DNA of 64,000 nucleotides from Proteromonas lacertae (lineage: Eukaryota), in the NCBI GenBank assembly GCA_002245135.1, contig NGBS01000886.1:1-64000 (forward strand), in the 5' to 3' direction. Positions 1-61,955 of the stretch are shown piece by piece. The translations under genes and the position numbers were made by a program. Position 1 is the stretch's first letter, and each line of letters begins with the position of its first letter. The notes under the pieces were generated by a model. The model did not search any database. It was not told where the DNA came from and saw nothing but the letters and a program-made list of their open reading frames with translations.

Positions 1-3000
1 TTGATGTAAGCACTAAATGTGAATGGTTAGAAGGAGTAAGTAAATCTTATCCATATTATCACATTATTTCTTATATGTCACTGATTCATATTTCCAACAT
101 TATTTGAATTATTATTTACTTTATAATAATATAATAAATGACTATATTAATATTAAAGAAGAATAAATGGAAGATTATTGAAAATGTCCACCAAAATATT
201 TTCAGCCATTGATGATATGAAAGAATATGTAAAAAGAATAGTGATGATCCAAACTTATTAGCTTATTTTACAACCACAAATGGACAAAGAGATGTTCTTG
301 CTCCAATATTAAAGAAACATGATAAATTGCTCTTTAGTATTCATCCAAGTGAAGGAATGAGATGTTATGAAAATATTGTTCAAGTTGGAAGATTTCCTAA
401 TCATTATGCATTTGCTTCAATAGCAACTGTTTGGCAATTTTCGCAATCAAAGACATTAGCTATTGTTATGTGTGATAATCCATTTTGTCATGGTGTTGGA
501 GAATCAATAGCTATTACAGCTGATACAATGAGAGATTTAAAGACTTCTAGATATTATTTGAATTCTACTTATTCGTTTGATAATATAACTGATTCAATGA
601 AAGATATTATCACTGATAGGTTGATGATATTTACTGTGTTAGGAAGTGAAACTACTGATTTTATAGAAATGTTGAATGAAAAGAATATGAAATCTGATAA
701 ATTTACCGTTATTAGTTTAGATGTATTAATTGAATGGGTAGATCCAGAAATATGGGAAGGACATGCATTCTTTGTTTCATATACAAAAGATAGTCAAACG
801 AATAGTGAAAATGAAAATTTTATATCAGAATTTACTGAAAGATTTGGTGATAATGATGATCTTTTGAATGAACACACTTTAAACATTTATACTGCTTTAA
901 TGATTCTGAAAAATGCATTTGCAAAAGCAAAAGATGAAACTTTTGATGAACTAAAAAGGCAAATTAAAGGTTTAGTTTTGAATTTACCAGTTGGAGAAAT
1001 AAAAGTAAGAGATGATATGATTTGTTCTAATTCTTATGTGTTAGTAAAAATTCAAAATGGAGAATACTATAAATTGTTGAAAACCATAAACCCAATGACT
1101 TTGACTTCATTTTTAGCTTATGTATATATATTTTTTTTTTTATTTGTTATAGAGAAATGATGGAGATACTTCAACATGTGAATTAGAAGAAACTGCCTCT
1201 GAATTATTAAACATAAATTTAGTTATTAATAGTAATGAGGAATCAATTCTGTTTTTGTTGGATTTGTATTTAGCCAATTATAATGAAAGAGATTATAATA
1301 TTGTATATAGATATTTATTGTTTATATTGCTTATTTAGGTATTAACAAAATATTATTGATGATTTTTGATCCTGAAAATATAACAACAGTAGTAATAACC
1401 TCATGTTCATTAGAGAAACAAAAACAATTCTTAACAGAAAAACAAGATTTGCTATTAATATCAATAATTGATAAAAGTGGAGATATATGTGATAATAGAA
1501 TGTATATTTTTATTCATTATTGTAATGTCTATAGAATGGAATTAGGTTCATTTCCAAATCAAAAGATTATCCCTTATATTGCCTATATATTAACTCATTA
1601 CACAACAGATGTGATGTTAATTACAAGTGTCAGTACATCAGAGAATGAATTGACTATGATAAAAGATACAATTTCCAGTTTAGGTGGTTATCTTAAGAAA
1701 CATAAAGTTGTGAATGAATCTGATACTGATTCTTTAGAAGATTCAATAACTGATTTTGTTAGCTCATATAGATTATACATACCCAATGGCGGTGTATTTT
1801 TAAATTATTTAACAAACCAGAAAAGTTATGAATTATTCTTCATTAAATATCAAAAGATATTCGGTACTGTTTACACTAGTTTAGAAGATGCTCATAAAGA
1901 TTTCCCAATATTTAGTTGGAGTATATTCCCAGATGTTGATAAAGTAAGAAATGTAGGTCAGTATTCGTTAGCATCATGTTACACTGATAAAAATACAGCT
2001 ACGAAGATATATAATATGGGAATCAATATGTTTGGTGAATCATATTCAATACCAAAAGTAGAAACAAGAGCAATCATTGCCTATGAATTATTAGTTGATG
2101 AATATACTGATACTGTAGATTTTAGTAATTTAGGAATTTACAAATATTTAAGCAATCATTCATTAACTACTTCGTTTGGCATAACAACAATGTCAAAAAC
2201 TGATACAAGTATTCCATTTCCATTTGTTGTCTTACAAAAGAATAAAGATGGATCATCCAATGTAGTATCAAATGTTACGAATAATTGGGAAGCTGAAGTA
2301 TATAGAAATCATTTTAATAGAGAAGAGTATAAAATTTGTTCAAGGTTCAATGGCACTGGTAATGAAATCACTTATGATTCAATTAGATTCTACTTTTTAA
2401 TATCCTTTACAGGAACTTTTTCATTTCTTCATCAGCTTTGCTTCTTAGTTATTTAGCTGCAGTTGATTATGTAAATGATCATTATAATGGAATACACAAC
2501 AAAATGATTTTACCAGTAATTCAAAATACAGAATCTGATAATGATATAGCAAAAGAGTTCATTAGAAAAGCTGTGAACGATACAGGAAACAGAGTGGTAT
2601 TTGGATTATCAAATTCAAAAATGAGAAGATATGTATTAGATGATTTACATGATAATGAATTGTTATTATTTTTTCCATATGCATTTGAAGGATATGAATG
2701 TAGTGAGAATGTAATATATATGAGAAATCCATTTACTGAATATATAACAATAATTGCATATTTTTATTTATCTGAAAAATCATTTGATGATATAATAGTA
2801 TTATATTCAGACACTTTAAAAGATTATGAAAATGCATTGAATCTTCAATATTTTCTAAAAGAGAAAGGAATAATAGTAAAGAATTTGATAAGATTACCAA
2901 CTTCAAATTATAAAATGGATGTAGTGATGAATATCATTGTGAGTAATATGAAGTCAGGATTGATTGTATCATTGTTAGAAGGATCAGCAGGAAAAGATTT

Positions 3001-6000
3001 ATTATTACAAATGAAAGAGAGTAATTATGATTCTAATACATATACAGTCGTATCATTTAATACAAAACTTACTGAAATTGATGATAATAAATATTGGAGT
3101 TGTTTGATGGACATTATTTTGTAGAAACACTTCAAAAGTCACATTTTAAGAATCAAGAAGTCTATAATATAGCAAAAGAAAAATATACATTTATTGATAA
3201 AGAACCATCCTCTTCAGGTTTATTATCTGTGATAATTGCTGCTAAAGCCTTAAATTCTATAAATTTTACTGAAGATACAGGTGAAGAAGGATTTGTTCCA
3301 TATTCATTTGAAGAATTATTGAATGCTGTTCATAATGTTAATTTAAGTGATATAATTGATGATACAATAGTAACTACAAATAATCAGTTATCATTGATAA
3401 GTGATTTAGTAAAAGTTCATTATCATACAAACAACAACAGTCATACTGTAGAAACAATTACTCATTTGAATGAATTGAATTATATTAATCCTTATTCTAC
3501 AAAATATAATAATGATGGAAATTTGTATTATTGTGAATGGAAGGTTGATAATAAAACAATAAGAGGTGATAAAATACCAAGATATAGTAAGAAAATAGCC
3601 TTTTTATATTCAATTACTGGTGATAATAAAAAGTATGAATTAAATGCAGTGGATATTGTAATAGCTACAATTAAGAATTTGAATAAAAGAGATGCTTTAA
3701 AAGGTACTTATTTAGATTATACAGTTTATGATACATCAAATTCTAATAATCTTAAATCAATTGGTGAAGAATTGGCTAAAGATGAAGATGTGATAATGAT
3801 AATTGGTTGTTCAGATACAAATTGTAAGAATGTAATAAATAAAGAGCTAATATCTGGAAAATCTAAAAAAGTATTGTGGTATCCATCATTATTTGAAGGT
3901 CAAGAGTGTGATAGTAATACTTATTATACTGGATTAGTTCCAAGTTTATTTACAAAACCATTATCAACATTTATAGATCAAGTTGAATCTGATAAGAAAA
4001 TATATTTCTTAGGAACAAGTGATGAAACCAATGAAATGATTCATCAGATATTGATTAATAATTATGAAGGGTTGTATACAATAATTGGAAATGATTTTGT
4101 AGAATCTGGTAAAGGTACAACTTATAGTTATGCAGATGAAATAGTAGGTAAATACATTGAAAATGGATGTATAATTATCATAACATTAGATGATGTTACT
4201 GCGATTGATTATATCAATTACTTTGATAGTTTAGTAGCTGATAAGTATCAAAAATTATCACTGAATAATAACAAAAGATTTCATATTATTTCAATTCAAA
4301 GTGATAGAGATTTAGTTCCTTCTTTAACATTATCAGGAAGTGTTAATGTTTATTTGACTGGTTCATATTATGACGAAATAAATTCAGAATGTAAATTCAG
4401 AACTAATATAGATGATTATTATGGTAAAAGTATAAAAGGAAATGAATTAGCACATAGTTCATATTTGGCTATAGTATATTGGTCAAATGCTGTATCAAAA
4501 ATAGATGGTGATTATACAAACAATGAATTATTGTCAAACCAACTGTATAGAGCCAGTCTTAAAGCTTGTAGTGGTATTACAATGATGTTTACTGATAATC
4601 ATCTTTCATTACCATTCTTTGTTATGCAAATTCTTAAAGATGGTAATAATTATGTTTTATCAAATGTATATGGTCAAACAAGAATACTTGAACCATTGGC
4701 ATATAGTTGGGATATACCTGAAACAAATGGTTTAGTGTGCGATTTTACTGATTCATCTGTTGGTTCTGGTAATGTAGTTCCAACTATTACAGTAGCTGTT
4801 GCTTTATCAGTATCTGGTAGATTAAGAGATACAGATAAATATGTTATGAATGTATTTGAATTAGTTTTAGATGCTTTAAATACAAATGATGGATTATTGG
4901 GCAAAAGAGTTACAGTACAAAGCTATGATATTCAATCAAGTGATATTGTATGTTATGAATTATTATCAAATTATTTAAAGCAAGTGAAAGAAGGTGTAAT
5001 ATTTTCAACTGCAGCTGATGGTTGTATTAGTTCATTAAGTCCATTATTGATAGAGAAAGATATTCTTTTATTCCAAATTGGTTATACAGGTGGTGAAAAA
5101 TGCTATAAGAATGTGTTTTATATGTTAAAAGAGCCAAGTTTTGTAAGTAGAGTGATTGATTATCTGATTGAACCAACAAAACCAGAAACATTACATTATT
5201 GCGTTTTAACTGCAAATGGTGATGCAGGAGTTAAATATGGAAGTTATATTAATAGTTACATGAGTATTATTGGTGGAATAGTTGATTATTCATCAAGTGG
5301 ATTAGCATTATCTGAAGATGGTTCTGATACAACAATTTCCTCAGAACTTGAAGATATTGTGAAAGGATTAGTTACAGCAACTCCTACATATGGATGTTAT
5401 ATATTGTTTATAGCTGATTCTATTATACATGTTCAAGTTGATAAACTATTGGATAAATATACAAAGGATAGTAATAGTAGAGATAAATACACAATAATTT
5501 CATTGAATACTGCTTCAAATGCAGCATATAGAGGTGCAAAACCATTTTATTCAGTTGAAACATATTTTACTAATTTAGACAATCCAGAGAATGAAATAAT
5601 GAAAGAAGAAATATTATCTGTTACTAATTTTGTTACTGAAGTAATGTACACAGCTTATATATCTAGTAAGATATTTATATATGCTGCTGAAAGTGTAAAA
5701 AGTGTAAAAGGACAATTGGTGAGTAAAAAATTATATGAATTAAATTATAAATCTCCTAGTGGTGGAAGATTAACAATGGGAGATGATAATTATATAAATC
5801 AATATATGTTATTTGGTAAAATGATAGAGAATGATGATGAATATGGGTTTGAATTGATAATGAGTTCTACTACAGTTATAGAATCTCAAGCTTACAAGGA
5901 TTGGGTGAATGATGCAAAATATGTATGTAAATTAAGTGGTGATATAGCTTATGATAAATTTAGAGAATCATCAATAACAATTGGTATATTAACATCATTC

Positions 6001-9000
6001 AGTGGCAAATACAATACAACCGAAAGATCAATAACAAGAGGTATTATCCAAGCTGTAGATGAGATTAATAATAGTGGCGGAATAATAGGTAGGAAAATTA
6101 CAATGTTAATAAGAGATGCACAATCAGAGATAGAAAGATATGTTTATTACGCTGAAGAATTCTGTAGACTTTCTGAAGTAAGTGTAGTATTTGGTGGAGG
6201 TGGAAATTCATTAATTAGTAGTTCAGTATATGAGATTTTTGAAAATAATAAGAAATTATTCTTCTATAATGGTTTAACACCAACAGAATCATGTCCAAAA
6301 TATACGATGTCAACTCAAATTACTAGTGAACAATTAATGAAAAGTGCTTGGAAATATATATTACCTAATATGAATCATTTATATATTATTCAAGATGATG
6401 AACTATTTAGTTCTCAGTTTTCAAGAAGTATGTTGATATTGAGTGATACTATAAAATTACAAACACATGTTTATAATCTTAGTAGTTTAAATGATTCTTA
6501 TATTCCAGATGATTTTGATATTGAAAGTTTAGATAAAGATTCAGTTATATTTTTAAGTGTGATTAAAGAAAATAATGTTCAAGCGTTTAATTGGTTGTGT
6601 AAACAGAATATAAATATGACAAAAACATATGTTGTATCAATTTCTTTAGATAGATATTTAATGGAATATATCCCTGCAAAATGTCTAGCTGATAGTTATA
6701 TATTAACTGCCTTTATTAAAGAAATGGGTTTAGAAACATCTGATACAATGACATATAAATCTACAAGTAAATCATTTATTGAAGCGATGAATGATCGTTA
6801 TGGTGAAAACTCAATTATTACATCAGAAACTGAGAATGGATATATAAGTGTAACATTATGGTCAAATATAATTACATCTTATACAAAATCGTTTGATAAT
6901 GTCAAGATTAGAAGCGCTTTGTATGGTTACTCATCAGTAGGTCCATCAGGAACAATTGAAATGAGTACTGATGGTTTTGCCAATAGAATAATATATTTAG
7001 TGAAAGTGTCAAATGATCTTAGTTTATCTGTGGTTGATTATGCATCTCAGCCTGAAGCTGCTGATGCTTGGAATGATATATTCCCTGAGAATGAAGGATA
7101 TAAATGTGATTGGACAATTGAAACATCTTCATCATCATCAAGGTTATTAGATGAAGAAGATTACACAAGATATAGACCAAAATCACTAAAGTTAGTATTT
7201 TTCCATGATACAACAGGAACTAGAAGTGTAGAAGTAAACTCAATGTTAACGGAATATTCGCTAGTTCAAGAAATAAACACAAATGGAGGAATAAATGGTT
7301 ATTTATTAATCCCTGAATTCATATTTGGTAGTAGTTTAGATGAATTTAGTAATTTAACAAGTAGATATATTGATGATGATGAAGTGGTTTCTTTCTTTGG
7401 TTGTAGTAGTGATAGTTGTAAGATAAATGCCCAAAATACTGCTGATAAAACACATAAACAATGGGTTTCTTATTCACTAACACATGGTGATAGTTGTAAT
7501 GGAAATCATATGGAAAGTGGTTCAACATTGTCACAAAAGTTTCTGTCAGTAGAGTATTATTTACATGAAAATATACCTGATTTGAGTTGTTTGATATTTG
7601 TAGGAGATGATTCAAAATTAATGGATAATTATTTCGATGTAATATATTATTATGTTAGAGAACATTATAAAGACAATAAAAATACTATTATAAAATTAGT
7701 TATAAATTCTGATAGCATTAATTCTTCAATAGAAGAGGCAATAAAGTCAATTCAGAAAAAGAAAGATGAATACAATAGAGTAGCTGTTCTATACTTTTTA
7801 GAGGGAGAAATTAATAATAGATTCATATCACAATATATTGCTAATGATTTAAATAGTCGTGAAGTGTTAATTATTATAATGAATTATGTTGAAAATGATT
7901 ATACAAGTGAAACACTTTCTTCAATTTATGGATCTTATGTTGTTTCATCCTTTAGTAGTTCAATTACCACATCATTTGCACAATCATTTATAACTACATC
8001 TCAAGGTGCAATTGGTATAAATAAAGATATAAATGAAAGAATAGAAGCAATAAAAGACGCAATAATGTTGTGGGAAGAAATATATAATAAAGCTGTTGCA
8101 GATTCAAAACAAATAATACCACCACTTAGATATCTCCAACTATCAGCTGTTGGAACAGAAATAAAATCACCATCTGGTAGTGTAAAAGTGGAAGAATCAT
8201 TATATGTTTCAAGAAATTCTTATATATTTGAGATTAATAGAAATGCCAAGTTTATTCAAGTTTTCCCTGCAAGAGGATCAGAATATGTTTTTAATGCTGA
8301 GCCATATCCAGAAGGATTACCAGATGAATGCAAGTTTGGTAAAACACAATTATTCCATAAATATAATTCTGTTATTCTAGGAATCGCATATTTATTATTT
8401 GGTATTTCATTAACATTGAGTATAAGTAGTGTTGTATTTGTAAAGATTCATGAAAGACAAATAGTGATAAAAACGTTGGGAAGAGCACATAATTATAGTT
8501 TGGCAGTAGCTTTAATGATACTTTCATTTTCATCAATACCAATTTATCAATACCCATCATCATCAAATGGTATTTGTGTTTTAAGAGTAATTGTTTTGAG
8601 TATTGGTGCAAAAAGTGTAATATCTGTTATGTTAGCTACAGAATCAAAATTGTTTAAAAAGAGTCTAACAAAACAATCACATATAAAGAAAACTAAAATA
8701 TCAATTTTGAGAGTATTATCTTTTTGGGCTAGCTTTATGGTTCTTGAAGTTCTTGTTATACTATTATGGTTTTTAATTGATCCAAATGATTATATGACTG
8801 CATTTAACACATCTGAAAGTGATTATTTCAGTGATGTTTATGTAAGAGAATGTTCAATATCAACTCCATTCATTATAATTGAAATGATAAGTGACTTTTT
8901 GCCTGCTTTAGCATTATTAGTAATGACTAATGTCACTAGACATTTAAACAACACATTCCATGATACATTAGGATTAAATATTTCATCAGTTGTTGTAATT

Positions 9001-9339
9001 GTTTTAGGTGGTATAATGGTATTATTAGACTTTAATATCAATAATGATCCAGATTCAGTATTGTTATTAAGGTCAATGGGTATAAATTTAACTGCAATTA
9101 TTATTGTGTTATTACAATATGGAATAAAAGTTGTTAGTGTCTATTTTGATGAAGATGCTAAGAATGTAACATCAAGTGGATCAGCTGGTGTTACAGGAGG
9201 TAGTGCTTCAATAGGAGCAAGCGTTAAATCATCTTCGCTATCTTCTCATGGAACATTGAGTAGTATGATGTTTGTATCTAATAAGACAAAGACTTTTATT
9301 ACTCAAACTCAAATGAGTAAAATGAAACATATTCAATAA
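1..9339 (+). CDS. Giant class C (7tm_3) GPCR-like receptor with at least 7 tandem UrtA/AmiC-like periplasmic-binding (Venus-flytrap) domains; 5' end lies outside the window
   Basis: ORFs 327-1160, 1356-2456, 2438-3124 and 3094-9339 are collinear parts of one repeat protein. Introns at 1122-1152, 1303-1338 and 1502-1534; 1-nt frameshifts near 1302, 2438 and 3093. Repeats carry UrtA-like motifs (IGILTSFSG...AVDEINNSGGIIGRKI; LWYPSLFEGQECDSNTYYTG). The C-terminus (~8370-9140) has seven hydrophobic segments with class C marks (H...VIK, C..R, WFLIDP, TRHLNNTFHDT). Confidence 0.85.
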
Positions 9340-19995: not shown

Positions 19996-22849
19996 ATGGA
20001 AGAACCACCAAACCATCTACATTATCCAGAAAATAAAAGAAAATCTAGATGGGCAATTATGATCATAACAATGTTAATTGTGGCAAACATCTTAGTATAC
20101 ACATATTTCTCTAAATATCTATTAGCTGTTATGTTTCTTCTCTTTTGGAGGTAAAAAACAAAATGGTGTTCTATATAATCATAATCCATCTAAGAATATG
20201 AGAGAACAGAAAACAGGAGAGAAAATATGTGATTGTAAGTTATTTGATTCTCCACCTATTGAAGCAGATCCAAAAACTAGAATCTTCCCACTACCACAAA
20301 AAATATCGTATATTATAAATCATTTTTCTAATTGTTATAATAAATTCTATAGAATAGGTACTTCATCTTCCAAACTATCAAATATAATCTCATTTACAGT
20401 AAAATATCCAGCATCAATAGATCATGAATTTCTCAAAGAAGTAATTGAACATCAATGTTCTATTATTGGTAGAGTTATCACACCAAATGAAAATCAGCAG
20501 GATCATTCATCCTCTTCAATTACAATTGATAATATAAATATAAATATTGATAGTTCAACAGATGCAAAAGTCAATGAATATCCTCAATATCCAATGAATG
20601 AAGATTATGAAATAACAATCAATTCAAACAACATAATCATCAAATCACAAACAATATATGGATCAATAAGAGGAATGGAATCATTTATACAGTTTACAAC
20701 ACCGATTAATACAGTAGTGCCTTATCCAACTACAATTATTGATTCTCCAAGATTCAAATGGAGAGGATTGTTATTAGATTCAAGTAGACACTATTATCCA
20801 GTTAGTTATATAAAGAAAGTAATTGATGGTTTGAGTTATAATAAATATAACACTTTACATTGGCATATAAGTGATGCAATTTCATTTCCATTAGATATAC
20901 CAAAGTATCCAGATTTAGCAAGAAAGACATCACACAATGGTCAAATATATAAAGAAGAAGATATTAAAGAGTTGGTTAATTATGCAAAAATAAGAGGAAT
21001 AAGAATTGTACCTGAAATTGACAGTCCTGCACATACAGCTGCATTGTATAAATATGATAAAGAAATGATTGTTACATGTAATGAACCAAATTTTGATGAG
21101 TTTACTGTGATTGATAAATATATCATAAATCCAATCAATCCTAAAACAATTAAGTTAATTGAAGATATTTATGATTATATTACTTCTTTATTTCCAGACA
21201 GATATTTTCATTTAGGAGGAGATGAAATTGATATATCTTATTGGAATTGTGATGATAAAATAAATAAATATGCAGAAAGTAAAGGTATAACAGTAGAAAA
21301 AATGTTACAAGACTATTTAGTCCATATAAGTGATTATGTTCAAAATAAAAACAAAATAGTTTTGTTCTGGGAAGGTGCATTTGAAAGTGGTGCATCTTTG
21401 AACAAATTTGTTGCTAAAGAATCATGGAAATGTTGGTCAAATGTTGGATATGATTCATTTGCAGAATCTGTTAAATCTGGTAGACAAAGTTTACAAGCAA
21501 GTTGTAATTATTTAGACTTTAATGCAGTTTGGCCTGAGTATTATACTCATGATATTATAAAGACTGTTACTATTACATCATTGAATGAGAAATCTCCTTA
21601 TATATTAGGAGGAGAAGCTGCTGTTTGGAGTGAAAGAATTGATATTACAACTTTGGAATATAGAATATGGCCAAGAGCTTCTGCTGTATTAGAGACATTA
21701 TGGAGAGAACAAGATGTATATATATATTTATTTATTTTTGTTTATTATCTTATTAGTCAGTTTCTACTGCTTTAACAAGACTCAATGTATGGGCTGAAAG
21801 GCTTAGAAGAAGAGGAATTATGGTTGCTCCATTTAGTAAAGATTCAATACCAACTACAGCAGAATCTAAATCAAATGATGGTTATAGTGGAATGATTGTT
21901 GAAGCAAATGTATATTTTGATTTGTTTCTGTTAATATAATATGATTAGTTTGACAGTTATCCACCCTCAGTATCTCAAAAGACTCAAAGAAATACAACCG
22001 ATGTTAATACATCAATAATGATTGTATGGAATGACTTTTTTTTAATATAATATAGTTTGATATTCCTAGAATTGCACAGAATAGAGATAATTTTGAAAGA
22101 TTAATTCAATCTACACTTCCTACATATTTGTTTTTATATGATACAATGGTTACAGAACCATCATTTGTACATTTTGCAACATCCAATGGTTATGCATATA
22201 GCCATATTATGAGAGGAGTTAAATCATTAGCAATACTAAGTTCAAATCCATTTTCAATAGTGAAAGAAGTAAAAGATCAATTTGATTATGGTTTTATTCA
22301 TATTAAAGTTGGTGATATTAACTTTATTGTATAATAATAATAATTATTATTATTACATATTTAATAGAGTATTCATTTAAGTGAAAAAACTCCATCTAAA
22401 CAAATTCAAGAAATAGATGAAATACTGAAATATACTGAACCATTTAATTCAGAAGTATGATTATAAAAATGATTAAAATTATTATTATTAGAAAATCGTA
22501 TTAGTAGGAATATTCAACTCATTAAGTCAAATTGATAAAGATAAACATCAAACAGTTGTTAGTTCAAATGAAGCTAATATATTTGTTGAAAACAATGTGA
22601 TTAATTATGATACAATCAAACACATTAATTCCAAGCAATTTAAGGACATTTCAGTGAACTTAGACACATTCAGATTATCTGATGTATATTTATCAATATT
22701 AATATATATTATAATAGAAAACTATGGTTAGAAGTGATTATATATTTGTTAATAATGTTATGAAGTTTGATGAAGAGCCAAAATGTATTTCAAAAACAGT
22801 TGAATTTGATATATCAAACCATATACCATTCTTATGTAGTTACAAGTGA
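19996..22849 (+). CDS. Type II membrane GH20 beta-N-acetylhexosaminidase fused to a C-terminal degenerate endonuclease/exonuclease/phosphatase (EEP) domain
   Basis: GH20 motifs DSPRFKWRGLLLDSSRHY, LHWHISD, VPEIDSPAH, HLGGDE, GGEAAVWSE, RIWPRA. Downstream exons splice in frame to LAILSS, SIHLS, VGIFNS, RSDYIFV and SNHIP; stop at 22847-22849. Confidence 0.85.
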
Positions 22850-24284: not shown

Positions 24285-24680
24285 TTACTCTTCTCCACTA
24301 CTTCCACTACTGCTTGAACTTGAACTACTTCTTGATCTACTTGATTCTTTTCTTTCAATAGTAGTTGTTGGAGCAGGGTTTGGATTACCTTCTTCTTTTC
24401 TTTCTAGAGCAGCTGGTGGTGGATTTGTTTTTACTTCCTTTGGTTTTTCACTTTCACTTTCGCTATCACTACTACTACTTCCACTATAACTAGAAGAATA
24501 ACTTGATCTACTTCCACTTCTCTTTCGGTTTAATTCTTCTTTCGGTTTTTCTTCTTCTTTCGGTTTTTCTTCTTCTTTAGGTTTTTCTTCTTCTTTCGGT
24601 TTTTCTTCTGCCTTCTTTATTTCTTCTTTTGGCTTTTCTTCTTTTAGTTTTTCTTCTTTAGGTTTTTCTTCTTCTTTAGG

Positions 24681-24737
<57 letters not shown>

Positions 24738-27700
24738 CTTCTTTAGGTTTTTCTTCTTCTTTAGGTTTTTCTTCTTTAGGTTTTTCTTCTTCCTTCTTTT
24801 CTTCTTCTTTCTTCACTTCTTCTTCTTTTGGCTTTTCTTCAACTACTTTAGGAAGTTCAATATTTGCACCAGCTGGCTCTTCGTTTCCATTTGGCTTTAC
24901 TCCTTTCTCAGATATGGATTTTGGCTTTGGCTTTGGCTTTGGTTGAAGTTTTGGTTTTGATTTTGATCTGGCTGGATGAGATTCTGTCTTCTTTGATCTA
25001 CATAATATTATTCCTACCACTATTATTATCACTACTACAACTGCTCCAACTATTATTCCTATTAAAGCACCTGTAGATAAACCACCACTATCTGAATTAT
25101 CTCCTCCATTACTAGGTTTTCCTGTTGGATTATTGATCTTCTCTTCTACTTTTGTTACTTCAACTTCACAATCTTTGAATATTGTTTCTTCTTCACTTAA
25201 ATCAGCTTTGGCTTTGATTTCTTCACTCAATTCATTTGAATCTTTCAAGCTATTTGCTACAAAGAATATTTGAGTTTTTGTTGATTCTTCTGGAACTGTC
25301 ACTATTACTTCGATATTCATATCATTTTCTAATCCTCGCAATAATATTCTTCGATTATTCACAATTACTTCAACATCTTCTCTTCTTAATGTTATACCAG
25401 CTTTCTTATAGATTTCCATTATTGAATCTTTGATTATATTTTTATCATTTTCACTCAATTCAGATACTACAGATGATGTAATATTTGAGATTTTGATTTC
25501 TATTGATATTCTTTCAATTGGTTTTGGAGTTGTTGGAATAGTTGTTGTTGGTATTGAAGTTGTTGGATTGGATGTTTCATTTGTTGATTCAGTTATACCA
25601 GTTTCGATTGTTCCAGTTTCATAAATAGTTGAAGTAGATGGAGATTCAGTTGTTGGTATTATTGTAGTGGGTATTTGAGTGGTAGGTTTAATTGTTGTGG
25701 GTTTAACTGTTGTTGGTCTTGCTGTAGTGGGTGAAGGAGTTGATGGTTTTATTGTTGTAGGTTTTGGTGTAGTAGGTTCAGCTGTGGTTGGTTTTATTAC
25801 ATATTTAATTAATATAGTCATATTAATACATTTGCTTTCTTCTCCATAGGCTAAGGGAGATTTTACACAAATATTCACTGTTTCATTTTTATCATTTTCT
25901 ACTTCACCAACACTCATTATTAATTTCGATTCATATTTATAAGGTAAATATTTCACACTTTTTAATGATTTTATTTTTATTATTTCACTTCCACTTACTA
26001 CTATTTCAGATGGATATGGTAAACTAAATATCATATTAAATTCACTATTCTCTTCTACATATTCTTTGTAACTAACTGTATATGATGGATTGACATCCCT
26101 TTTTACTATTTCAATTACTTCTTCTTTATTCTCAGGTGAAATAGTATATTCAACTTTAGTGTAAGATTCTATAAATGAAATTAATGAGATCATTTGATTA
26201 ATAGTATAGATAACAGAAGTGGAATTTAACCAACTGTTGATTGTAACTGGAACTGCATTTATATATGGATTTTGTATAGACACAGTCTTTGATTCATCTT
26301 GTATATCTTTTAATAACAAATACATATTCTTCTGAATAAAAATCCCTGATGATGAATCAACATATATTGGACTTAAACTAATCTCATTTCTATACCAAAT
26401 TGATTTACCTTTACTATAATATGGATAAGATTTTTCATCAAATGATATATCAACATTTTCTAATATCTTATATTCATCGATTATTTTATTTCCATCATAT
26501 CTTGGCATTGTGGAATAATACATTTTCGTATCCTTTGTAAAGAATCCATTCAAATATTTATATGGCTTTTCTTTTATATCAGAATTTTCATCAACTAAAC
26601 CAACTTCTTCAACATCAAATGATCGAACTATTTTTATTCCACTTTTCTGTTGTATTATGGCATTGTAAATTATGTTTGGTTTTTCTGTTCCTTCTTTATG
26701 TTGTATATCTCTAATTTCACATGAAAATGTTAATCCATCATCATATGTTATTGAACTATACACATTATTCAATGAACTTCCTGATTTTGTATATTTTGCA
26801 ATCATGAATATAGTAGCACCATCACTTTCAATACTTTTTGTAAAATGATAATTAATATAACTGTTAGATAATATCACATTTGCATTATCTCCGCTACTTT
26901 CATACATTCCCCTAAATCCAACTACTTCAGTTGCTCCAGTTAATATACCTATTCTTATATCACTCCAGCATTCATCAACTGTTTCAATCACATTACTTCT
27001 ACAAACAAATGGACCAAAGAATGCCCAATCTTTTCCATCAATATCAGCTACTACTCTTACAATAGCAAAACATCGATAAAACTTCATATAGGATGATCCA
27101 GCTGTTGCATGTGCTACTGTTAAACTACTACTTATTCCCTGAGGTGCTTCTACATTAAATGTATTTACATCACTATAACTGTATGAGATAATCAAATTTT
27201 CAGATGATCCAAACATCAAACCATGATGAACTACATGATCAGAAACTCTATTAGATGTAAAACTATATTCATTTCCTTTCACAAATATTCCACTCACTTC
27301 TTTTCCTTCGATATTGTTTATCATACCACTTATTAAGCCAAATGTTGATACAAATTCACCTGAATTGACTGATATTTTATTATCAAAATATATTCCAACG
27401 TGAATCATTATTACATTTTCCATTGAGTTACTCAATAAACCAAATGTCTTATCTTCACTTTGAATCATTTCAATACTTGGATTTAATTTCAATTCTACAT
27501 CATACAAATAACTGTTCTTTATTTGATTAAATATTCCATTTTCTGTGGTTTTAAGTAAAGGATTTACACTATTTCCATCATGAGATTCTATTATCAAATG
27601 TAAATGTTCAATTATTTGATTTTCCAATGAACCAAATAAACTCAATACATTTTTCTCATTTTCTTTTATATAATGCTTCATCTTCACTGTATAATCACCA

Positions 27701-30700
27701 CTAGTTTTTAATTTCTTAAATGATAAAGATTCAGGAACTTTCCATTTACTCATATCAATTACATATGATTTGGTTATTTCAGCTGTTTCACTATTCGTTG
27801 TTATTAATCTATAAAATTCATCATTATTTGATTCTTCTTTTATTTCGATCTTTACTGTATATCTTTCATCAACTGGTTGAACATGAATTATTAATTCATA
27901 TTCTTTTCCTTCTAAAATATTTGATGGAATTGTTCCACTTACAACACCTGTAGACGATTCTACTGTTATAAAATCAGGACCAGTTTCTTTGCTAAATGTT
28001 AATGCTGGCGGATTTTCAGATATTGTTGGAGTTATACTTATATCTTTACCTCTTTGAGTAATATAATTCTCTGGATAAATAATACTAACACATGCATCTA
28101 CAATATTTATGAATTCAGGAGGGTTAGTAAGTGAACAAAATGCTTTCCATTTCTTATTTGGAACATTTGGACAGGCTAATTCACCATATTCACCAGGTTT
28201 TGCTTCTACAGATTGATCATATATTGTTATTGTACATTTTGCATTACACATTGAATCATCAATTGATTCTTCCCATTCTCCATTATTTCCACATCTTCTT
28301 GTTCTAAAGGCTTTTGATTCACCTCCACAACCTGCTTTGCCATATCCTCCGTATGGAGTAGATTTCCATTCACCTTCTGTAAAACATGATAATCTACAAC
28401 TATATGGATAAACACCTCCTGTATCAGCACCATTCCATTCAAGTTTAGTAATATTTATTCTTATTCCATTAAATGCCATATTATTCTCACTTGGTAATGA
28501 AAAGTATTTCGAATTAAAACCTTCTTTTAATCTTTCTGTAGTATTATCGTTATAATTAAATACTGGAATATAATCTCGAGGAAGAGTGTTTGGATATGTT
28601 TTTATTCCATATGCTTCAAAGCCTTTAACTAAACGGTTATCATTACTACCAGTTCTATATTGTAAACCATTAAACCATCTTGATTCTTCTGCAGCAAATA
28701 CAAACTCAAACCAAGCTGGTTTGGAAAGATCACTAGGAATCCAAGTAGCTTTTTTGTTTTCATTTAAAATATAATTAAATGCATTTTCTAATTTTTCACT
28801 TTCACTAATAGCTTTATATTCTTGACCTGGTGTACCTGCTTCAAAATATGTATATTTATCAAATTGACAAGTGTTTATTCCAGATAATAAATGAAATTCA
28901 TTTATCTTAAATTCATCTGGTTCGGTTGAACTTTTATCAGATTTATGAAATTCTATTCCTAAAATATTATTTCCATTCTTCTGTAATAATGTTATTGGAG
29001 CTGTTACAAAATATTTTCTTTCACTCTTTTCATAACTACCACCCCATGTCTCACTTGTTGCATCTTTTGGTAAATATTTATTGTAAAATTCTATTCCATT
29101 CATAAACATTCTAATTCCTCCATTTGAGAATGTAAATGATAAATAAAACATTGATAAATCACTTACATCTTCATTAAATTCAAATGATTGGACATAATAT
29201 CTCACCAATTTATCAGCATTAAATGGTGGTAAAACATCTACATTTTGCCAATTACTTGAATCATACGATAATTCACTCCAATCATTACTCTGTTGAATCT
29301 CTTCAGTATATTTGATTTGATTATTAAATGGAATTAGATTCTTTGTATTAACTTTGGCTTTTGATTCACTTGTTCCACCTGTATTTCTTCCTCTAAATAA
29401 CACTGCTCCATTGTGCAATAATTGTAATCTCATTTCACTATATTCCCAAAATTGATTTCCTGTACTTCCTAATGTTAATTCATAAGTTGTTGGATCTTCA
29501 CAGAAATATTTCTTATTCTCACCAACTTTTTCATCAAATAATTGAATTTCTTTTCCTTCTTTCGTCATTTTATAGGTTATAAAACCTTCATTACCACTCC
29601 TAATAAACAAATTTACTTCGAAGAATACTTTCTTGCAATTACCAGATGAAACTGTTAATGTAATTTCGTCACTTATTTCTCCTTTTGGTGAGTTTTCTAC
29701 AGTTATTTTGATTTGTTTTGGCTCAGAAGCTTCTGTTGGAGTTCCATAAATTAAACCACTTTCTTTGTCAAATGCCATTCCTTTTGGTAAATTCTCTTCA
29801 TTTGCGATCATAAACTTCTTACCTCCATTTTCTATTGATGGATATATTTCATAATAAATCTCAAATGCAAATTCAAATGATGTTGATTCATATCTTAATA
29901 TTGGTTTATCACTTGAACGAATCATTGTTATTGGAATTATTTCATCTTTAAAGAATGATGAATATTTAAACATATTTTGATTTTCATAATACAACTTATA
30001 CCAACCACCTAAATTAGAATTTGAGGTGATTTTTAATTGATTTGTTGTTGATGGAACACATTTCATAAATGTATATACTTTATTCTCTCCTAATGATCCT
30101 TCACTTGATGAGGAATAAATTGGTATTTCACTATTCAATATTTCTAATGTTACACTTTCTGGTTGACTTTTGATTAAATAATCCATTATTAGAAATTCTT
30201 CTCCTTCATCACATGCTATATTTACATTGATATTAACAGATATTGTTTTATAAGTAGTACATTCTACTTCTATTGTTCCTGAATATGATGAAATTTTAGT
30301 TTTACCTGTCAAAACTCCATTTGAATCAATGAATATAAAATCAACTGGTGATACTAACAATATAATATCACATACTGTATTTAATGGTGATAATTCAAAG
30401 TTTTCATTTATCTTTCCTACAATACCTTCACTTGGATATTCAATTACTGGTTCTGTTGATAGTTTTACTTCAAATATAATTTCAGAGAAATACTTTACTC
30501 CATCTTTTTCAGCTGTTATTGTGTAAATCTTTTCTTCATTTGTAACAGTAACAGTTCCTGATATTTCACCAGTTAATTCAGAGAATGACAAACCCTTTGG
30601 TAATAATGGTTCTATTGAATATTCAAATCCATTTAATACAACATTTTGATGAATTATGATATTTGAAATATCATCATTTACACGATAGTTATTATATATG

Positions 30701-33700
30701 GATGAATAAACAAATGGATATGGCGGATCAGTTAAAAACCATTCATTTGGAATTGGCACATAACTTCCACTACTACTACTTTCATAGTACAATTCTAATT
30801 GCTTTATATTATCATTACCACTTTTTGTATAAACTATTCTCAATTTGTATATTTGATTGATTAATTCAATTGTTTTGTCTATTTCATGTAAACCACTTCC
30901 TACTCCTTCAAATATTATATCTCCTATCACTAATTGACAATAATCATAGCATTTTAATCTCATTTTATAACTTCCACTTGTTTCTATATTCAAATATCCT
31001 TTATAATCAGCTATAAATAGTTTATTCATTATTGAGGGTAAACCATTCCATAAATCTTCACTTTCAGAATGGAATATTGAAGTTGTTTCTAATCTTTCTA
31101 ACATCATTTTTGAACCAATTGCTAATGATGGTTCTTCAAAAGAATCTATATTAACTATACTCGCAGTGTAATATTTAACTAATAATCCATTGATTTTATT
31201 TTCTTTATTGCTTCCACTATAACATACTATTTGAACAATTGTTTTTGAAACATCAATTGCACCATTTGAACTTATTTCAACTGATTTAAACTGATTATCA
31301 CACACTGTTGGAACACCAATTAATGCTCCATCTAATCTAATACTTAAACCATCTATTGGAGGATTCATTGACCATGTTGATGGATATCCTTCATATGATG
31401 CTGTTATTGTTCTACTAACACCTTCCTCATATACTATTGTTGATGATCCATAGGATAAGTGAGTCAATAAAAAACCACCATGATAAATTATATCATTAAT
31501 ATTTTTGTGTTCAGTATCAGACTTTTTATAAAATGCATTAAAACCATTCTGTCCAGTTCCAGCCCATGATAAATATCCAACAAGATGATATCCTTTAGTT
31601 AAATGAACTGGAAAAGTCTTTTCATCATCGTAAGCAGTAGTTGAATATCTTTCTTCTTCAAAATTACCAAATGCAAACTTTTGTCTATCATCAGATTTTC
31701 CTGATAATACATAATCTCCTTCTTCAGCAATGTATATATATCCTCTCATTCTAGCAACAATTTTTTGACATGGATTCCACAACGGGTGCTCAGGTAAACA
31801 TTCGGAATCATGAGTTGAATATGTTACGTCAGCATTAGTCAGAATTTCGGGATCTTTTACATTATAACCACCATTTTCAAATTTCTTCCATATCTCATTT
31901 AAAGTTTTACCCATAAACTTTCCATCATCATTAATACCATCCTCTCCTGAATTTTTCCATATTACAAATTCTAATCCTTTTGTCAAACTACCTGTTTTCC
32001 AAACTATTGTAAATGGAAATTCTTTATCAGCTCTAAGTGTTATTGTCGTTGTTATTTCTTGAGTTGCATCTGTAACCCTTCCTGTTATTTCACCTGTTTC
32101 TATATTATATGCAAGACCAGGAGGCAAATTCTCAATCGACATTATGAATGGATTAACTTTACATTTAAATTTCAAATCATATTCAATTTCAAATAAATTG
32201 ATTGAATCAAAACCATAACTGCATTCTACTCCATTATTTAATACACTTACATAAACACTTGCAGTAGAATCATCAATGAATGTAACTACAACTAATTCTA
32301 CAAATTCAACACCATCTGTATTACTCAATGTTAAAATTCTACCAAAATAGGTTAATCCATTTATCATTACTGATAAGGATTTTATATCTTTTTCTAATTC
32401 CAATGCATTTTCTGTATATGGTTTGGTTGATAAATATTTATAATTTTCTGTACATTCATGATCAACAGCATCTTCCCATACACCATTCTCTCCACATTTT
32501 CTTTCTTTATATCCAATGCCACAATATGTAATTGAAGAAGAACCAGCATGTGTTGAAGGAAATCCACCATTAGTTTCACATATCGACAAAGGTACTTCAT
32601 TTAATATAAACAATCTAAATTGAATATATTCTCCCCATTCATTTGCATAATTATAGTTACTCAAAACTTTCAATCTGTAAATTTCATAAGCTTTATTATT
32701 TGTATTTACTGGGATTGTTGTAATATCTTTACAATTTAATGGTTGTTTACCAAATCCCATATCTTCATTTTCATATAGTTTTATCCATTCTAAGTTATCA
32801 CTATCAACAGAAGCATAAACCTGGATATGTTTTGGATTAGTATCAGGGTTGTTACTACACCCACTTATTTGGACTTGGTTAAAATATTTAGCTACATGAT
32901 TCTTAAATGTAAAATCAAAATTCATTGGAAACCATTTTGATTCTTCATTTTTACCTAATACAACACCACCAAATTCAGTTGATATAGAAAAAAAATTAGT
33001 TAAAGGTTTATCTCCTACTTTAGGAATATTACCAGCATCTGATATTACTTTAATATCAACATTATCTTTTGTTGTCACTGTTTCTAATCCTCTATCATCA
33101 GTTTCTATTGATGCAGAAAATTTGTCAATTTGATTTGCTGGACTTTTCTCGGATTTATGTATTTCTATTCCAACATAATTCACTAAACTATGAATAACTG
33201 GTTCAGGAATTGTAATAGCAGATTCAACTACAACATTAAACGATTTTGTGGCTTTTGTATCTGGTTTTATTTCACCTAATGGCATATTCTTTCGAAAGAT
33301 TTCTATTCCATTTACATAAACGATTAAACCATCTGTATATTTTACCTTCAAAATAGGAGAATTAATAATGCCTATGTCATGAATCACAAATGTTCTACGA
33401 TAATAAGTAGTAGTTGTAGTTTTAACTGGATAAAAAATAGGTAAATACGTAATCCAATCATTATATACATTACTCCATGTATTATCACTTTGTGGACTGT
33501 TTGAATAACCCCATTCACTATTTTCTAACAATATAACACTAGATAACTCTCTAATTATTGTTCTTTCTTCATTTTTTTCATCTATATACACTGTCACTCT
33601 TTCGTCGTCTTGTATATCTTTAATGTTGATTGTAGAGATGATTTTACCATTCACTTCAATTTCTAGAATCTCATAAATGCATTTTGATGTTTTTTCTTCA

Positions 33701-34137
33701 TTTCTTCTAATTTCATAGGTACCAGCACTTAAATAAAATGAACTAGATTGTGTACCATTTATCACTTTCGATCTAAATAGCTTGGATAACTCAATCTTCT
33801 TTTCACCATTATATAAACTAAATGGCTCGAAGTTTATACCTTTATCTATTTGATAGTCTGATGGATTATCTTTTGGAGAAATTACATAATGGAGCTTCAC
33901 CAAAATGCCGGATTTAAGGCTAATCTCATATTCATTATCAAAATGACTATCTTCAATTGAATCTACGAACGTATGTGGTCTTGGATTAACTCTTTCTGAC
34001 TTTAAAGTATTCGAGAATATTTCATTTTCAATTGTGTTTCTCTCTAAATATGTCTCATAAGAAGTAGATAAACCTATATAAGAATAATTATTTATATTTA
34101 TACACAGAAATAGAACGAATATGAATAAATAACTCAT
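24285..34137 (-). CDS. Giant intronless cell-surface protein (~3280 aa): carbohydrate-binding jelly-roll modules, PA14 x2, He_PIG/Ig-like repeats, HRM-like Cys modules, Thr/Pro mucin stalk, TM, EEKPK-repeat cytoplasmic tail
   Basis: Signal peptide from ATG 34137. Ig-like LPPGLAYNIETGEITG, LPKGLSFSELTGEISGT, LPKGMAFDKESGLIYGTP; PA14 ARMRGYIYI..G.Y..SGKSDD; TM GALIGIIVGAVVVVIIIVVGIILC. The EEKPK frame resumes past the poly(T) run and ends at TAA 24285-24287. Confidence 0.85.
24535..24840 (-). repeat. Coding tandem repeat (E)EEKPK interrupted by a 48-nt poly(T) run at 24690-24737
   Basis: Units of the form ttcttctttaggtttt lie on both sides of the run; the reading frame differs across the run. 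Confidence 0.85.
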
Positions 34138-34675
34138 CTTCAAAGATTATTTTTAAAACTATCAATTCGGTTTTAGATCTTCGGTTTTCTATTTTAAGAT
34201 ATTTTTATTGGATATACTACACTATCATTTTTTGAGTGAATAAAAACATATAATAATAATCAGTAATATCATATTGTAACATTTGCTCTAAAGCGTGGTT
34301 GTATCTATCACAAACTTACTCATCTATGACATTTCATATTTCTAACTATGCAAATTATATCATTGAATAAGATATTTCGATCTATTTCCATGTATTTCAT
34401 TTTCTGTGTTTATCTTCTTCATCAATAAACAATTTCATCAGATATATACAATTTTAAACCTCATTTGTTTGAGTATTCTCTTTAAATTAATTTGATGTTA
34501 ATAAGATAAGAGAGATATATCATTAACTTTGAAAATACCGAATAATATTGATAACAGGTTATTCTCTGAATAGTTAATACTATTATACTGTTTATAGTAT
34601 CTAAATTGGTAATTAAAACATCTACATTCATCTGCATACCTTATAGCTTTGAAATAAAAAAAACAACCCTAAATA

Positions 34676-37700: not shown

Positions 37701-38018
37701 AAGGAATTATCAACTGAAAGAATAGATACAGATATGTATAAATCGAATGGTAAAACGATAGGTGTATCATTATCCAACGATTCAAGATGGGGTTTAACAG
37801 TTGATTCTCATTCACAAATGATTTTGTGGAATATTAATGATGGACTTCCAGAAGTATTGAATTCAATTGAAGATCAGATCAAGAATATAATGTTTTTATC
37901 AGATAATACTGGTTTTATAACATTCACTAACAGTAAAGTAGAAAAATGGATATTTGATTGGATGTTGTCGTATGATGGTAGAAAATATGATTCACCAGTA
38001 GGAATATTAGTAAGATAA
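34709..38018 (+). CDS. PH - CAMK-family Ser/Thr kinase - PH - WD40 repeat protein
   Basis: Exon chain starts at ATG 34709 (first intron 34760-34783). PH1 GYLYKKGHIIKNWKRRYVVL; kinase IGAGGYSIV, VAIK, HRDLKPEN, DFG, APE. Intron 36499-36530 links in frame to PH2 (GYLMKQGHIIKNWKKRSFVL) and WD40 repeats. Confidence 0.85.
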
Positions 38019-41162: not shown

Positions 41163-41645
41163 TTAACAAATAATTGTCCATTCATGGTACTTTGATTTCC
41201 TATTGGTTACATCAATACCATGTCTTTTCTTGAATTCAAAAGACCAGCCAGGAGATGCTTGAAAAGGTTTCATACATTTTTGGCCTTTCAGCACATTGTA
41301 AAACGCTTTAGCTGTCTTAGTGACGTACTCATCACTAAAAACTAATTTTGAACCATGAATCAAAGCATCTTGCCATAAATTAGACAAAATCTTGTTCTCT
41401 TCTTCTTCAGAAAAAACTCTATTGCATAAACCTCTCTTATCTAGTGATGGATCTTCATTCCTTTTTATCCAGTTTCTATACTTCCTGGAAAGTAATTGTC
41501 TCTTCACTTCATAAGTTCTGGCGACAAGTGAGATATTGCGGGTTTGCTCTATCTCTTTGAACATTTGAATCCATTTTTCAAGGCTTATCTTGGTGTGAGG
41601 AGAGACATTATTCAATTGTTTTGGTTGCTTTATTGATTGAGTCAT
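41163..41645 (-). CDS. CENP-B/pogo (Tc5)-type tandem HTH DNA-binding protein lacking a DDE domain
   Basis: psq-like HTH (ISLVARTYEVKRQLL) followed by FSEEEENKI...FQASPGWSFEFKKRHGI; intronless, 160 aa. Confidence 0.8.
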   Translation of the reverse strand: MTQSIKQPKQLNNVSPHTKISLEKWIQMFKEIEQTRNISLVARTYEVKRQLLSRKYRNWIKRNEDPSLDKRGLCNRVFSEEEENKILSNLWQDALIHGSKLVFSDEYVTKTAKAFYNVLKGQKCMKPFQASPGWSFEFKKRHGIDVTNRKSKYHEWTIIC

Positions 41646-61781: not shown

Positions 61782-61955
61782 ATGAATTTATTCACCAAAT
61801 TATTTTTAATATTTCGATCTATGACATTTTCATCAGCATCCAATATGTTTTAAATCTAAATAAGTTGTTTTCAACTGTATGACTTCCTTCAATATTGAGT
61901 TTATAATGATTTTTTAAATATTGAAACGGATTAAATTAAAACGAATATAATTCTA

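What the first reader, a model, noticed from the sequence alone, without database searches (positions are those of the whole stretch)
1..9339. Class C GPCR with a chain of at least 7 bacterial urea/amide-binding (UrtA/AmiC-like) Venus-flytrap domains
Seen: about 390-aa repeats at roughly 45-1160, 1200-2345, 2378-3545, 3586-4745, 4783-5935, 5968-7115 and 7183-8335, followed by a 7TM. The first bases encode another linker (DVSTKCEW), so further repeats lie upstream. Each repeat keeps a G-x-x-C-type motif (SEGMRC, SGDIC, FEGYEC, FEGQEC, GGEKC, PTESC, HGDSC) and a linker Cys (TCEL, ICSRF, YCEW, VCDF, VCKL, KCDW, ECKF). Known: mGluR, CaSR and GABA-B receptors have one flytrap per chain, and LFYP..YEG.EC..N..YTG is typical of bacterial urea ABC-transporter binding proteins. 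Inference: a bacterial solute-binding module was acquired, amplified and diversified on a GPCR, giving a >3000-aa multi-ligand sensor, possibly for nitrogenous solutes.
Basis: partly seen in the sequence, partly recalled or inferred. Interest (0 to 1): 0.9.

Follow-up and report, generated by a model that had tools for sequence, protein, structure and literature searches.

The report
Receptor carrying seven bacterial flytrap domains

Summary
Confirmed, with corrections. Seven ~390-aa repeats lie head to tail before a 7tm_3 domain. Six of seven pass Pfam Peripla_BP_5; none passes ANF_receptor. The best sequence and fold matches are cyanobacterial UrtA (Z 47). Bases 3091-9339 are one clean ORF. 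A 70%-identical relative reads through the two breaks it covers, so they are likely assembly errors; no reads could be checked. This is a family: 30 of 150 listed relatives have three or more repeats, 15 of them with a 7TM. P0020 has 7 repeats plus 7TM in one frame. P0063 (signal-peptide-like start, nine repeats, matching order) suggests nine in the full protein. The window's repeats keep 0-4 of 9 urea-pocket residues, so urea sensing here is unsupported. P0021, P0040 and a chytrid protein keep 7-9 of 9. I found no paper describing UrtA-type or 7-9-flytrap class C receptors. New variant of a known kind; interest 0.72.

The parts
3..26 (+). End of a further upstream repeat (K-C-E-W linker); the gene's 5' end lies outside the window
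   Evidence: same C-x-W motif ends the other repeats
27..1185 (+). Repeat R1, UrtA/AmiC-like flytrap; three frame breaks near 81, 164, 232; intron 1122-1152
   Evidence: Peripla_BP_5 E 9e-22, TIGR03407 E 6e-21; limits
1122..1152 (+). 31-nt GT..AG intron (inferred)
   Evidence: joins frame 3 to frame 1 and restores the linker
1186..2345 (+). Repeat R2, most degenerate flytrap; introns 1303-1338 and 1502-1534; frame break near 1351
   Evidence: Peripla_BP_5 E 0.002; Foldseek top hits UrtA/AmiC; 65% identical to P0001 over 314 columns
1303..1338 (+). 36-nt GT..AG intron (inferred)
1502..1534 (+). 33-nt in-frame GT..AG intron (inferred); P0001 has a similar read-through stretch at the same place
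2346..3540 (+). Repeat R3; frame breaks near 2424 and 3098; keeps the lobe-1 Ser and Glu of the UrtA pocket
   Evidence: Peripla_BP_5 E 6e-21; P0001-P0003 read through both breaks; pocket table
3541..4746 (+). Repeat R4
   Evidence: Peripla_BP_5 E 2e-29
4747..5934 (+). Repeat R5
   Evidence: Peripla_BP_5 E 5e-17
5935..7113 (+). Repeat R6, closest to UrtA in sequence (23% to Synechococcus UrtA P0066)
   Evidence: VIA-align Z 47.2, rmsd 2.6-2.7, 381-383 aligned
7114..8337 (+). Repeat R7, membrane-proximal flytrap ending in E-C-K-F
   Evidence: Peripla_BP_5 E 5e-20; two-lobed fold in the model
8338..8367 (+). Short beta-strand stalk between R7 and TM1 (no nine-cysteine domain)
   Evidence: strand 800-803 before helix 808 in the model; no NCD3G hit
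8368..9147 (+). Class C seven-helix membrane domain (7tm_3)
   Evidence: Pfam E 4e-17; mGlu4 7TM E 7e-7; seven long helices in the model
9148..9339 (+). Ser/Gly/Thr-rich cytoplasmic tail and stop codon

Best explanation
This is likely one intact cell-surface class C receptor whose ectodomain is a chain of at least seven, probably nine, flytrap domains derived from cyanobacterial-type UrtA, and it is predicted to sense an extracellular solute other than urea through one or a few domains while the rest would act as a coupled rod relaying movement to the membrane domain. Shown: domain identity and order, the single ORF from late R3 to the stop, the fold of R6-R7-7TM, and loss of the urea residues. 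Inferred: that the six 5' frame breaks are assembly errors; nine repeats behind a signal peptide (by the P0063 template); a disulfide between the two conserved cysteines of each repeat that ties the exit strand to lobe 1, so that clamshell motion pulls on the next domain and, for R7, on a GABA-B-like stalk about 12 residues before TM1; R3 as the best remaining binding site; G-protein signalling, possibly through a partner subunit because this 7TM has lost the usual TM3/TM6 lock motif.
For: Architecture: (pLDDT 89.5, pTM 0.80 for R6-R7-7TM). One polypeptide: P0001 (2668 aa, 8 cluster members) covers R2-R7 and the 7TM in one frame at 64-74% identity per domain, with no drop in R2 (65%) or R3 (74%). 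P0020 (5 members) has 7 repeats and a 7TM in one frame, each window repeat matching its positional counterpart. All six breaks are minus one base, crowd the first third of the gene, and no premature stop occurs. Nine repeats: domains 4-9 of P0063 match position-specific profiles R2-R7 in order, and its domain 3 groups with R1. Cys pair: 144 of 158 full-length receptor-type domains against 5 of 89 other domains. R3: Ser and Glu of the pocket in 6 of 7 and 7 of 7 arrays.
Against: No ligand is shown. R3's pocket conservation is not significant (p = 0.115), and R7, the domain that must drive the 7TM, has pocket columns less conserved than background (0.22 against 0.37). The four breaks near 81, 164, 232 and 1351 lie outside the part covered by the close relatives. 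The 7TM reads A-T-E-S-K and F-H-D-T where relatives have K-A/T-W-R and F-N-E-S/A, so G-protein coupling may be weak or lost. The pTM of 0.80 covers only two repeats, from a 33-row alignment. The disulfide could not be measured.
Confidence: 0.5

Rival explanations
1. Multi-ligand sensor: every repeat has a pocket re-tuned to a different solute, and the array integrates them.
For: Position-specific repeat identities have been kept over long distances, so each position is under its own constraint. Pocket columns vary among paralogues, as in a diversifying chemosensor family. A published InterPro table lists 116 class C C-terminal domains and 182 PBP-I hits in Proteromonas lacertae.
Against: Between the window and its 70% relative, pocket columns of R3-R7 agree at 32 of 45 (counted), no more than background. 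No repeat shows significant pocket conservation. Closure six domains away from the membrane needs a long relay that no call shows.
Confidence: 0.2
2. Ligand-free scaffold: the flytraps serve as stable spacers or protein/glycan-binding modules, and the receptor works by contact or force, like an adhesion GPCR with a class C core.
For: Urea residues are lost in all seven repeats while the fold and cysteine pair are kept. There are 19 N-glycosylation sequons over seven repeats. The 7TM lock motifs are divergent.
Against: R3 keeps lobe-1 pocket residues across most arrays. Relatives with the same fusion keep a complete small-molecule pocket.
Confidence: 0.18
3. In this genome the gene is decaying or split: the 5' part is a pseudogene and only the 3091-9339 frame (4.4 repeats and the 7TM) could be made.
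For: Six frame breaks in 3.1 kb against none in the next 6.2 kb; R2 lacks part of lobe 1 (364 aa).
Against: All six are single-base losses and there is no nonsense change. Identity to P0001 is as high in the broken part as in the clean part. The 3091 frame starts in mid-domain with no signal peptide. Other apparent assembly faults occur in the window.
Confidence: 0.12

Closest known systems
GABA-B receptor and mGlu/CaSR (metazoan class C GPCRs)
   Same: 7tm_3 domain under a type I periplasmic-binding-protein flytrap; Foldseek aligns about 700-830 columns to GABA-B, mGlu and CaSR chains; short stalk without a nine-cysteine domain, as in GABA-B.
   Different: One ANF_receptor flytrap per chain there. 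Here seven or more Peripla_BP_5 flytraps, closer to UrtA (21% identity, TM 0.82-0.86) than to those receptors (9-14%), and divergent TM3/TM6 motifs.
UrtA, urea-binding protein of the cyanobacterial UrtABCDE transporter (PDB 8HIC, 7S6E, 7S6F) and Pseudomonas AmiC (1PEA)
   Same: Same fold over the whole domain (Z 47 and 43), including the E-C and C-D-W cysteines of the cyanobacterial type.
   Different: Soluble single-domain bacterial proteins. The window's repeats are 17-23% identical to UrtA, far below the TIGR03407 cut-off, and lack the urea hydrogen-bond residues.
Non-metazoan class C receptors with bacterial solute-binding domains: diatoms (PMC3727952), anaerobic gut fungi (PMC5168858), Dictyostelium and early fungi with BMP, OpuAC, SBP_bac_1 (PMC3251606)
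   Same: A bacterial-type binding module replaces ANF on a 7tm_3.
   Different: The passages read give N-termini of up to 730, 1600 and 1667 aa, name other domain families, and mention neither UrtA-type domains nor tandem arrays.
Trypanosome receptor adenylate cyclases (PMC6027212); Bordetella BvgS (tandem arrangement recalled)
   Same: Tandem flytraps (two) on a signalling receptor.
   Different: Cyclase or histidine-kinase output instead of a 7TM; two domains rather than 7-9.
Entamoeba EhVFT (PMC12965686)
   Same: A flytrap protein with bacterial affinities on a gut protist.
   Different: Single domain, GPI-anchored, no 7TM.

Membership tests
Class C GPCR | 7tm_3 domain above the curated cut-off | tested here: met
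   63.2 bits against 33.5, E 3.9e-17; mGlu4 and GPR156 7TM hits
Class C GPCR | Seven transmembrane helices | tested here: met
   Seven long helices at model residues 808-1067; hydropathy at threshold 1.7 found six of them
Class C GPCR | Cys at the top of TM3 and in ECL2 (motif recalled) | tested here: met
   I-C-V-L-R and R-E-C-S in the window and in 8 of 8 relatives printed
Class C GPCR | Large extracellular flytrap N-terminal to the 7TM | tested here: met
Class C GPCR | TM3 K..R / TM6 F-N-E lock and TM7 P-K motifs (recalled) | tested here: inconclusive
   Window has A-T-E-S-K, F-H-D-T, G-I-K; relatives P0021, P0030, P0034 keep K-x-W-R and F-N-E
Class C GPCR | Obligate dimer | not tested
Class C GPCR | Couples to a heterotrimeric G protein | not testable with these tools
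   Needs an assay; no genome is held in which to look for G-alpha
Class C GPCR | N-terminal signal peptide | not testable with these tools
   5' end outside the window; P0063, P0076 and P0135 begin with hydrophobic, signal-like stretches (judged by eye)
mGlu/CaSR/T1R subfamily | ANF_receptor flytrap followed by NCD3G | tested here: not met
   ANF_receptor only on R3, 19.3 bits against cut-off 25.4; no NCD3G hit at E 0.1
UrtA/AmiC (Peripla_BP_5) | Pfam PF13433 above cut-off | tested here: met
   6 of 7 repeats; R2 17.8 bits against 27
UrtA/AmiC (Peripla_BP_5) | Two-lobed cluster B fold | tested here: met
   R6: Z 47.2, rmsd 2.6-2.7, 381-383 aligned with 7S6F and 8HIC; R2 weakly
UrtA proper (TIGR03407) | Score above 492.75 bits | tested here: not met
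   56-117 bits for six repeats, no hit for R2
UrtA proper (TIGR03407) | Urea pocket W120 S122 Y141 Q144 E146 Y190 F192 N246 S274 (PMC10392092) | tested here: not met
   R1-R7 keep 2, 1, 2, 2, 0, 4, 0 of 9
UrtA proper (TIGR03407) | Part of an ABC importer operon | tested here: not met
   Intron-bearing gene fused to a 7TM; no ABC family among the 23 other long ORFs scanned

The most novel reading that the evidence does not exclude
The gene is the degenerate end of an undescribed family of urea-sensing GPCRs, built by fusing cyanobacterial-type UrtA to a class C 7TM early in eukaryote history and spread over chytrid fungi and at least two other lineages. Pocket-intact members (P0021 with four 9-of-9 domains in a nine-domain chain, P0040, chytrid P0076) would be G-protein-coupled receptors for urea, and arrays of up to nine flytraps arose more than once.
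Probability: 0.5. Interest if true: 0.88.

Novelty: new variant of a known kind. Interest (0 to 1): 0.72.

Why it matters
Class C receptor theory rests on one flytrap per chain. A chain of 7-9 asks how, or whether, closure travels through stacked flytraps, and the family offers natural 2-, 3-, 7- and 9-domain versions to test it. It also catches the bacterial-binding-protein-to-receptor transition with the donor still recognisable: some members are 41-49% identical to Synechococcus UrtA and keep the full urea pocket, so a urea-sensing GPCR is directly testable with one expressed domain. In the window's lineage the same scaffold appears to have expanded into many paralogues with altered pockets, a candidate chemosensory repertoire.

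Tried and rejected
No whole genome is held, so upstream sequence, paralogues and G-alpha genes could not be sought. No sequencing run was listed, which is no evidence either way. A scan of metagenome contigs gave 591 pattern matches, none confirmed. A search for longer relatives of R1 found none among 1318 candidates (weak), and a 7TM search with P0034 returned only itself among 700, so I have no canonical class C sequences for a 7TM or ANF tree. Introns as the cause of the breaks near 2424 and 3098: rejected, because the relatives are collinear there and an intron at 3098 would delete the conserved G-H-Y-F strand. Blastocystis as the source, my first guess: disfavoured, as the window has one TGTTTGTT site on both strands and the published table gives 0 class C domains and 0 G-alpha in all 8 Blastocystis columns. 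A shared nine-domain ancestor for P0021 and the window's array: not supported, since P0021's domains do not map to positions. The trees do not place the window's repeats: they fall near the root on long branches. AU tests neither reject nor show one origin of all receptor domains (p 0.37) or their union with cyanobacterial-type UrtA (p 0.33). Earlier findings by place, sequence and words gave nothing in four of five look-ups.
Full report
Observation. The window is AT-rich eukaryotic DNA (GC 0.24-0.31) with short GT..AG introns. Bases 3091-9339 form one 2082-codon frame. Upstream, the same protein continues through three inferred introns (1122-1152, 1303-1338, 1502-1534) and six one-base frame shifts near 81, 164, 232, 1351, 2424 and 3098. 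Read through with X at each break it gives 3080 residues without a stop: the end of one repeat, seven repeats of 364-408 aa, a 7TM and a short tail. Six of seven repeats pass the Pfam Peripla_BP_5 cut-off (E 5e-17 to 1e-33). R2 does not (E 0.002). ANF_receptor appears only on R3, below cut-off. The C-terminus is 7tm_3 at 63 bits against 33.5. NCBIfam gives the urea-binding UrtA model as best hit for six repeats, at 56-117 bits, far below its 493-bit cut-off.

Structure. Against PDB sequences the top hits are cyanobacterial and Caldicellulosiruptor urea-binding proteins, then mGlu4 (7TM part only) and AmiC. AlphaFold2 on R6-R7-7TM (1074 aa, 33 rows) gave pLDDT 89.5 and pTM 0.80: two two-lobed domains, a short strand and seven long helices. 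Foldseek matched whole UrtA chains at TM 0.81-0.86 and GABA-B, mGlu and CaSR chains over 700-830 columns with a different inter-domain geometry (rmsd 24-32). VIA-align ranked UrtA first (Z 47, rmsd 2.6-2.7 over 381-383 residues), then AmiC (Z 43); its list tested mainly R6. The model of R2 is poor (pLDDT 55), but its ten best hits are UrtA and AmiC entries.

Are the breaks real? P0001 (2668 aa, unnamed, 8 near-identical members) matches R2 to the tail at 64-74% per domain and runs straight through the breaks at 2424 and 3098, as do P0002 and P0003. Identity is no lower in the broken part. All six shifts are losses of one base (chance 0.03 if the sign were random) and all lie in the first third of the gene (0.001 if uniform), three of them in the first 250 bases. 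This looks like a poorly polished contig end (inference). Elsewhere in the window a run of more than 40 A breaks a GAA-rich repeat, and two apparent introns lack a donor GT. No reads could be laid on it, and four of the six breaks are outside the part that close relatives cover, so a decaying 5' end is not excluded.

A family, not a one-off. A full HMMER search with R6-R7-7TM listed the best 150 of 932 hits. With profiles built here, 30 of the 150 have three or more flytrap pieces of at least 150 aa, 15 of these with a 7TM; 5 more have two flytraps and a 7TM. Pfam confirmed Peripla_BP_5 on all 25 long hits scanned and found 7tm_3 on 13 of them. These records are frame-by-frame gene calls and most are cut at one or both ends, probably at introns or contig ends. 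P0020 has seven repeats and a 7TM in one frame, collinear with the window. P0063 starts with a signal-peptide-like stretch and has nine repeats; its domains 4-9 score best against position-specific profiles R2-R7 in order, though it was left out of those profiles, and its domain 3 groups with R1. The full protein is therefore probably nine flytraps and a 7TM, about 3,900 aa. Of 20 hits looked up for names, two 7TM-bearing ones carry organism names: Phlyctochytrium bullatum KAJ3101170.1 and Dinochytrium kinnereticum KAJ3207669.1, each with a signal-like start, two flytraps and a 7TM. P0021 (unnamed) has nine flytraps and a canonical 7tm_3 (130 bits). Most share a C-x-F-G junction just before TM1. 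The ESM Atlas returned only single-flytrap class C clusters as look-alikes.

Ligand pocket. PMC10392092 (passages read) names nine pocket residues of Prochlorococcus UrtA, with S122, Q144, Y190 and N246 hydrogen-bonding urea. Synechococcus UrtA P0066 has all nine at the same numbers. The window's R1-R7 keep 2, 1, 2, 2, 0, 4 and 0 of nine, and none has W120, Q144, Y190 or N246. In contrast P0021 has four domains at 9 of 9 and one at 8, P0040 one at 9, and the chytrid P0076 one at 7. Of 158 full-length receptor-type domains, 9 keep seven or more and 144 keep three or fewer. Across seven related arrays, pocket columns are not significantly more conserved than other columns in any repeat (best R3, p 0.115; R7 below background). 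These alignments are at about 20% identity, so single cells may be off. What is kept is a cysteine pair, after the E-G motif and in the terminal C-x-W: 144 of 158 receptor-type domains against 5 of 89 other domains, those five including the cyanobacterial UrtAs. A disulfide is my inference; the paper's main text does not mention one.

Origin. In a 37-row mixture-model tree the slowly evolving receptor domains (P0021, P0040, P0052, P0076) form one group (SH-aLRT 91) beside cyanobacterial-type UrtA (89). The window's repeats lie on long branches whose place is unresolved (FastTree on 87 rows). AU tests do not reject one origin of all receptor domains or their union with cyanobacterial-type UrtA, and do not show it either. 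No ANF-type sequence was in the trees. The UrtA origin rests on profile scores, fold ranking and the cysteine pair. P0021's repeats are 34-52% identical among domains 1-7 and do not map to the window's positions, which suggests separate amplifications. Direction and date of transfer are not shown.

Organism. No call identifies it. Short introns and a putative-Ig surface protein recall Blastocystis (from memory). But the supplementary InterPro table of PMC12129017 (rows read) gives all eight Blastocystis columns no class C domain and no G-alpha, whereas Proteromonas lacertae has 116 class C C-terminal domains, 182 PBP-I hits and 7 G-alpha. A lineage of that kind would fit; this is a lead, not a test. 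It also shows that such genes are counted in a published table, though that paper's main text has no occurrence of 'receptor' or 'periplasmic'.

Mechanism. Most likely an intact receptor in which R7 sits on a stalk of about 12 residues above TM1, as in GABA-B, with no cysteine-rich domain. Each repeat's exit strand would be pinned to lobe 1 by the cysteine pair, so that opening or closing could be passed along. Urea binding has been lost. One or a few repeats, R3 first, may bind another solute. The 7TM keeps the TM3 and ECL2 cysteines but has A-T-E-S-K and F-H-D-T where paralogues keep K-x-W-R and F-N-E (motif roles recalled), so it may signal through a partner. Rivals are a sensor with seven different ligands, a ligand-free contact or force sensor, and a decaying gene.

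Literature. Ten searches. 'Tandem Venus flytrap' with 'GPCR' gave 0 papers. None of the 30 listed of 100 held both Peripla_BP_5 and 7tm3. None of the 25 listed of 438 held 'UrtA' (the rest were not seen). Passages read: PMC3727952, PMC8687355, bioRxiv 2025.04.15.649019 (33, 37), PMC5168858, PMC6027212, PMC3971589, PMC3251606 (83, and section 20 in 87). For PMC12965686 I read the abstract and sections 4 and 6. They establish bacterial-type binding domains on non-metazoan class C receptors and two tandem flytraps on trypanosome cyclases, but not UrtA-type domains or long arrays on a GPCR. Not seen and possibly relevant: supplementary figure S3 of PMC3971589, supplementary file 10 of the bioRxiv paper (closed), figure 5 of PMC3251606, and the Proteromonas genome paper (recalled; not in the listing).

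Verdict. It works like a class C GPCR and meets the testable sequence and fold criteria, but it is not an mGlu/CaSR-type member, and its repeats are UrtA-derived but are not UrtA. New variant of a known kind, interest 0.72. The strongest lead is the pocket-intact relatives as urea-sensing GPCRs.

Noticed in passing
P0021, P0040, P0052, P0070 (unnamed records); P0076 and P0135 (chytrid fungi): Multi-flytrap proteins with 7-9 of 9 UrtA urea residues in at least one domain (P0135's first domain is broken up in its gene call); P0021, P0040 and P0076 carry a class C 7TM. In all three the membrane-proximal flytrap is degenerate and the intact pockets lie further out.
   Followed up: partly
P0126 cluster (46 members, JGI/Logan/ENA): Two UrtA-like domains, one hydrophobic segment near residue 737 and about 400 further residues with no 7TM hit: possibly the same ectodomain on another output domain.
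   Followed up: no
P0044, P0050, P0062, P0089, P0116: Prokaryote-like proteins of about 1450-1600 aa with a UrtA domain at each end and a middle membrane segment; the two scanned have STAND/NB-ARC traces with NACHT-helical or HEAT domains between.
   Followed up: no
window 24676-34146 (-): 3156-aa surface protein with putative Ig (He_PIG) and weak PA14/GLEYA hits; a run of more than 40 A near 24690-24740 breaks the frame in its Glu/Lys-rich tail, probably an assembly fault.
   Followed up: partly
window 35785-38018 (+): Protein kinase domain joined through a 32-nt intron to a PH domain and a WD40 propeller in one gene.
   Followed up: no
window 38096-40802 (-): DEAD-box helicase gene in which two apparent introns show no GT donor (near 39980 and 38660): assembly deletions or non-canonical donors.
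   Followed up: partly
window 20126-21775 (+) and 61935-63215 (+): GH20 hexosaminidase and GT92 glycosyltransferase genes.
   Followed up: no
window 55961-59673 (-): Multi-exon gene with several IPT/TIG domains and a long low-complexity region.
   Followed up: no
window 41163-41717 (-): Tc5/CENP-B-type helix-turn-helix fragment, possibly a transposon relic.
   Followed up: no
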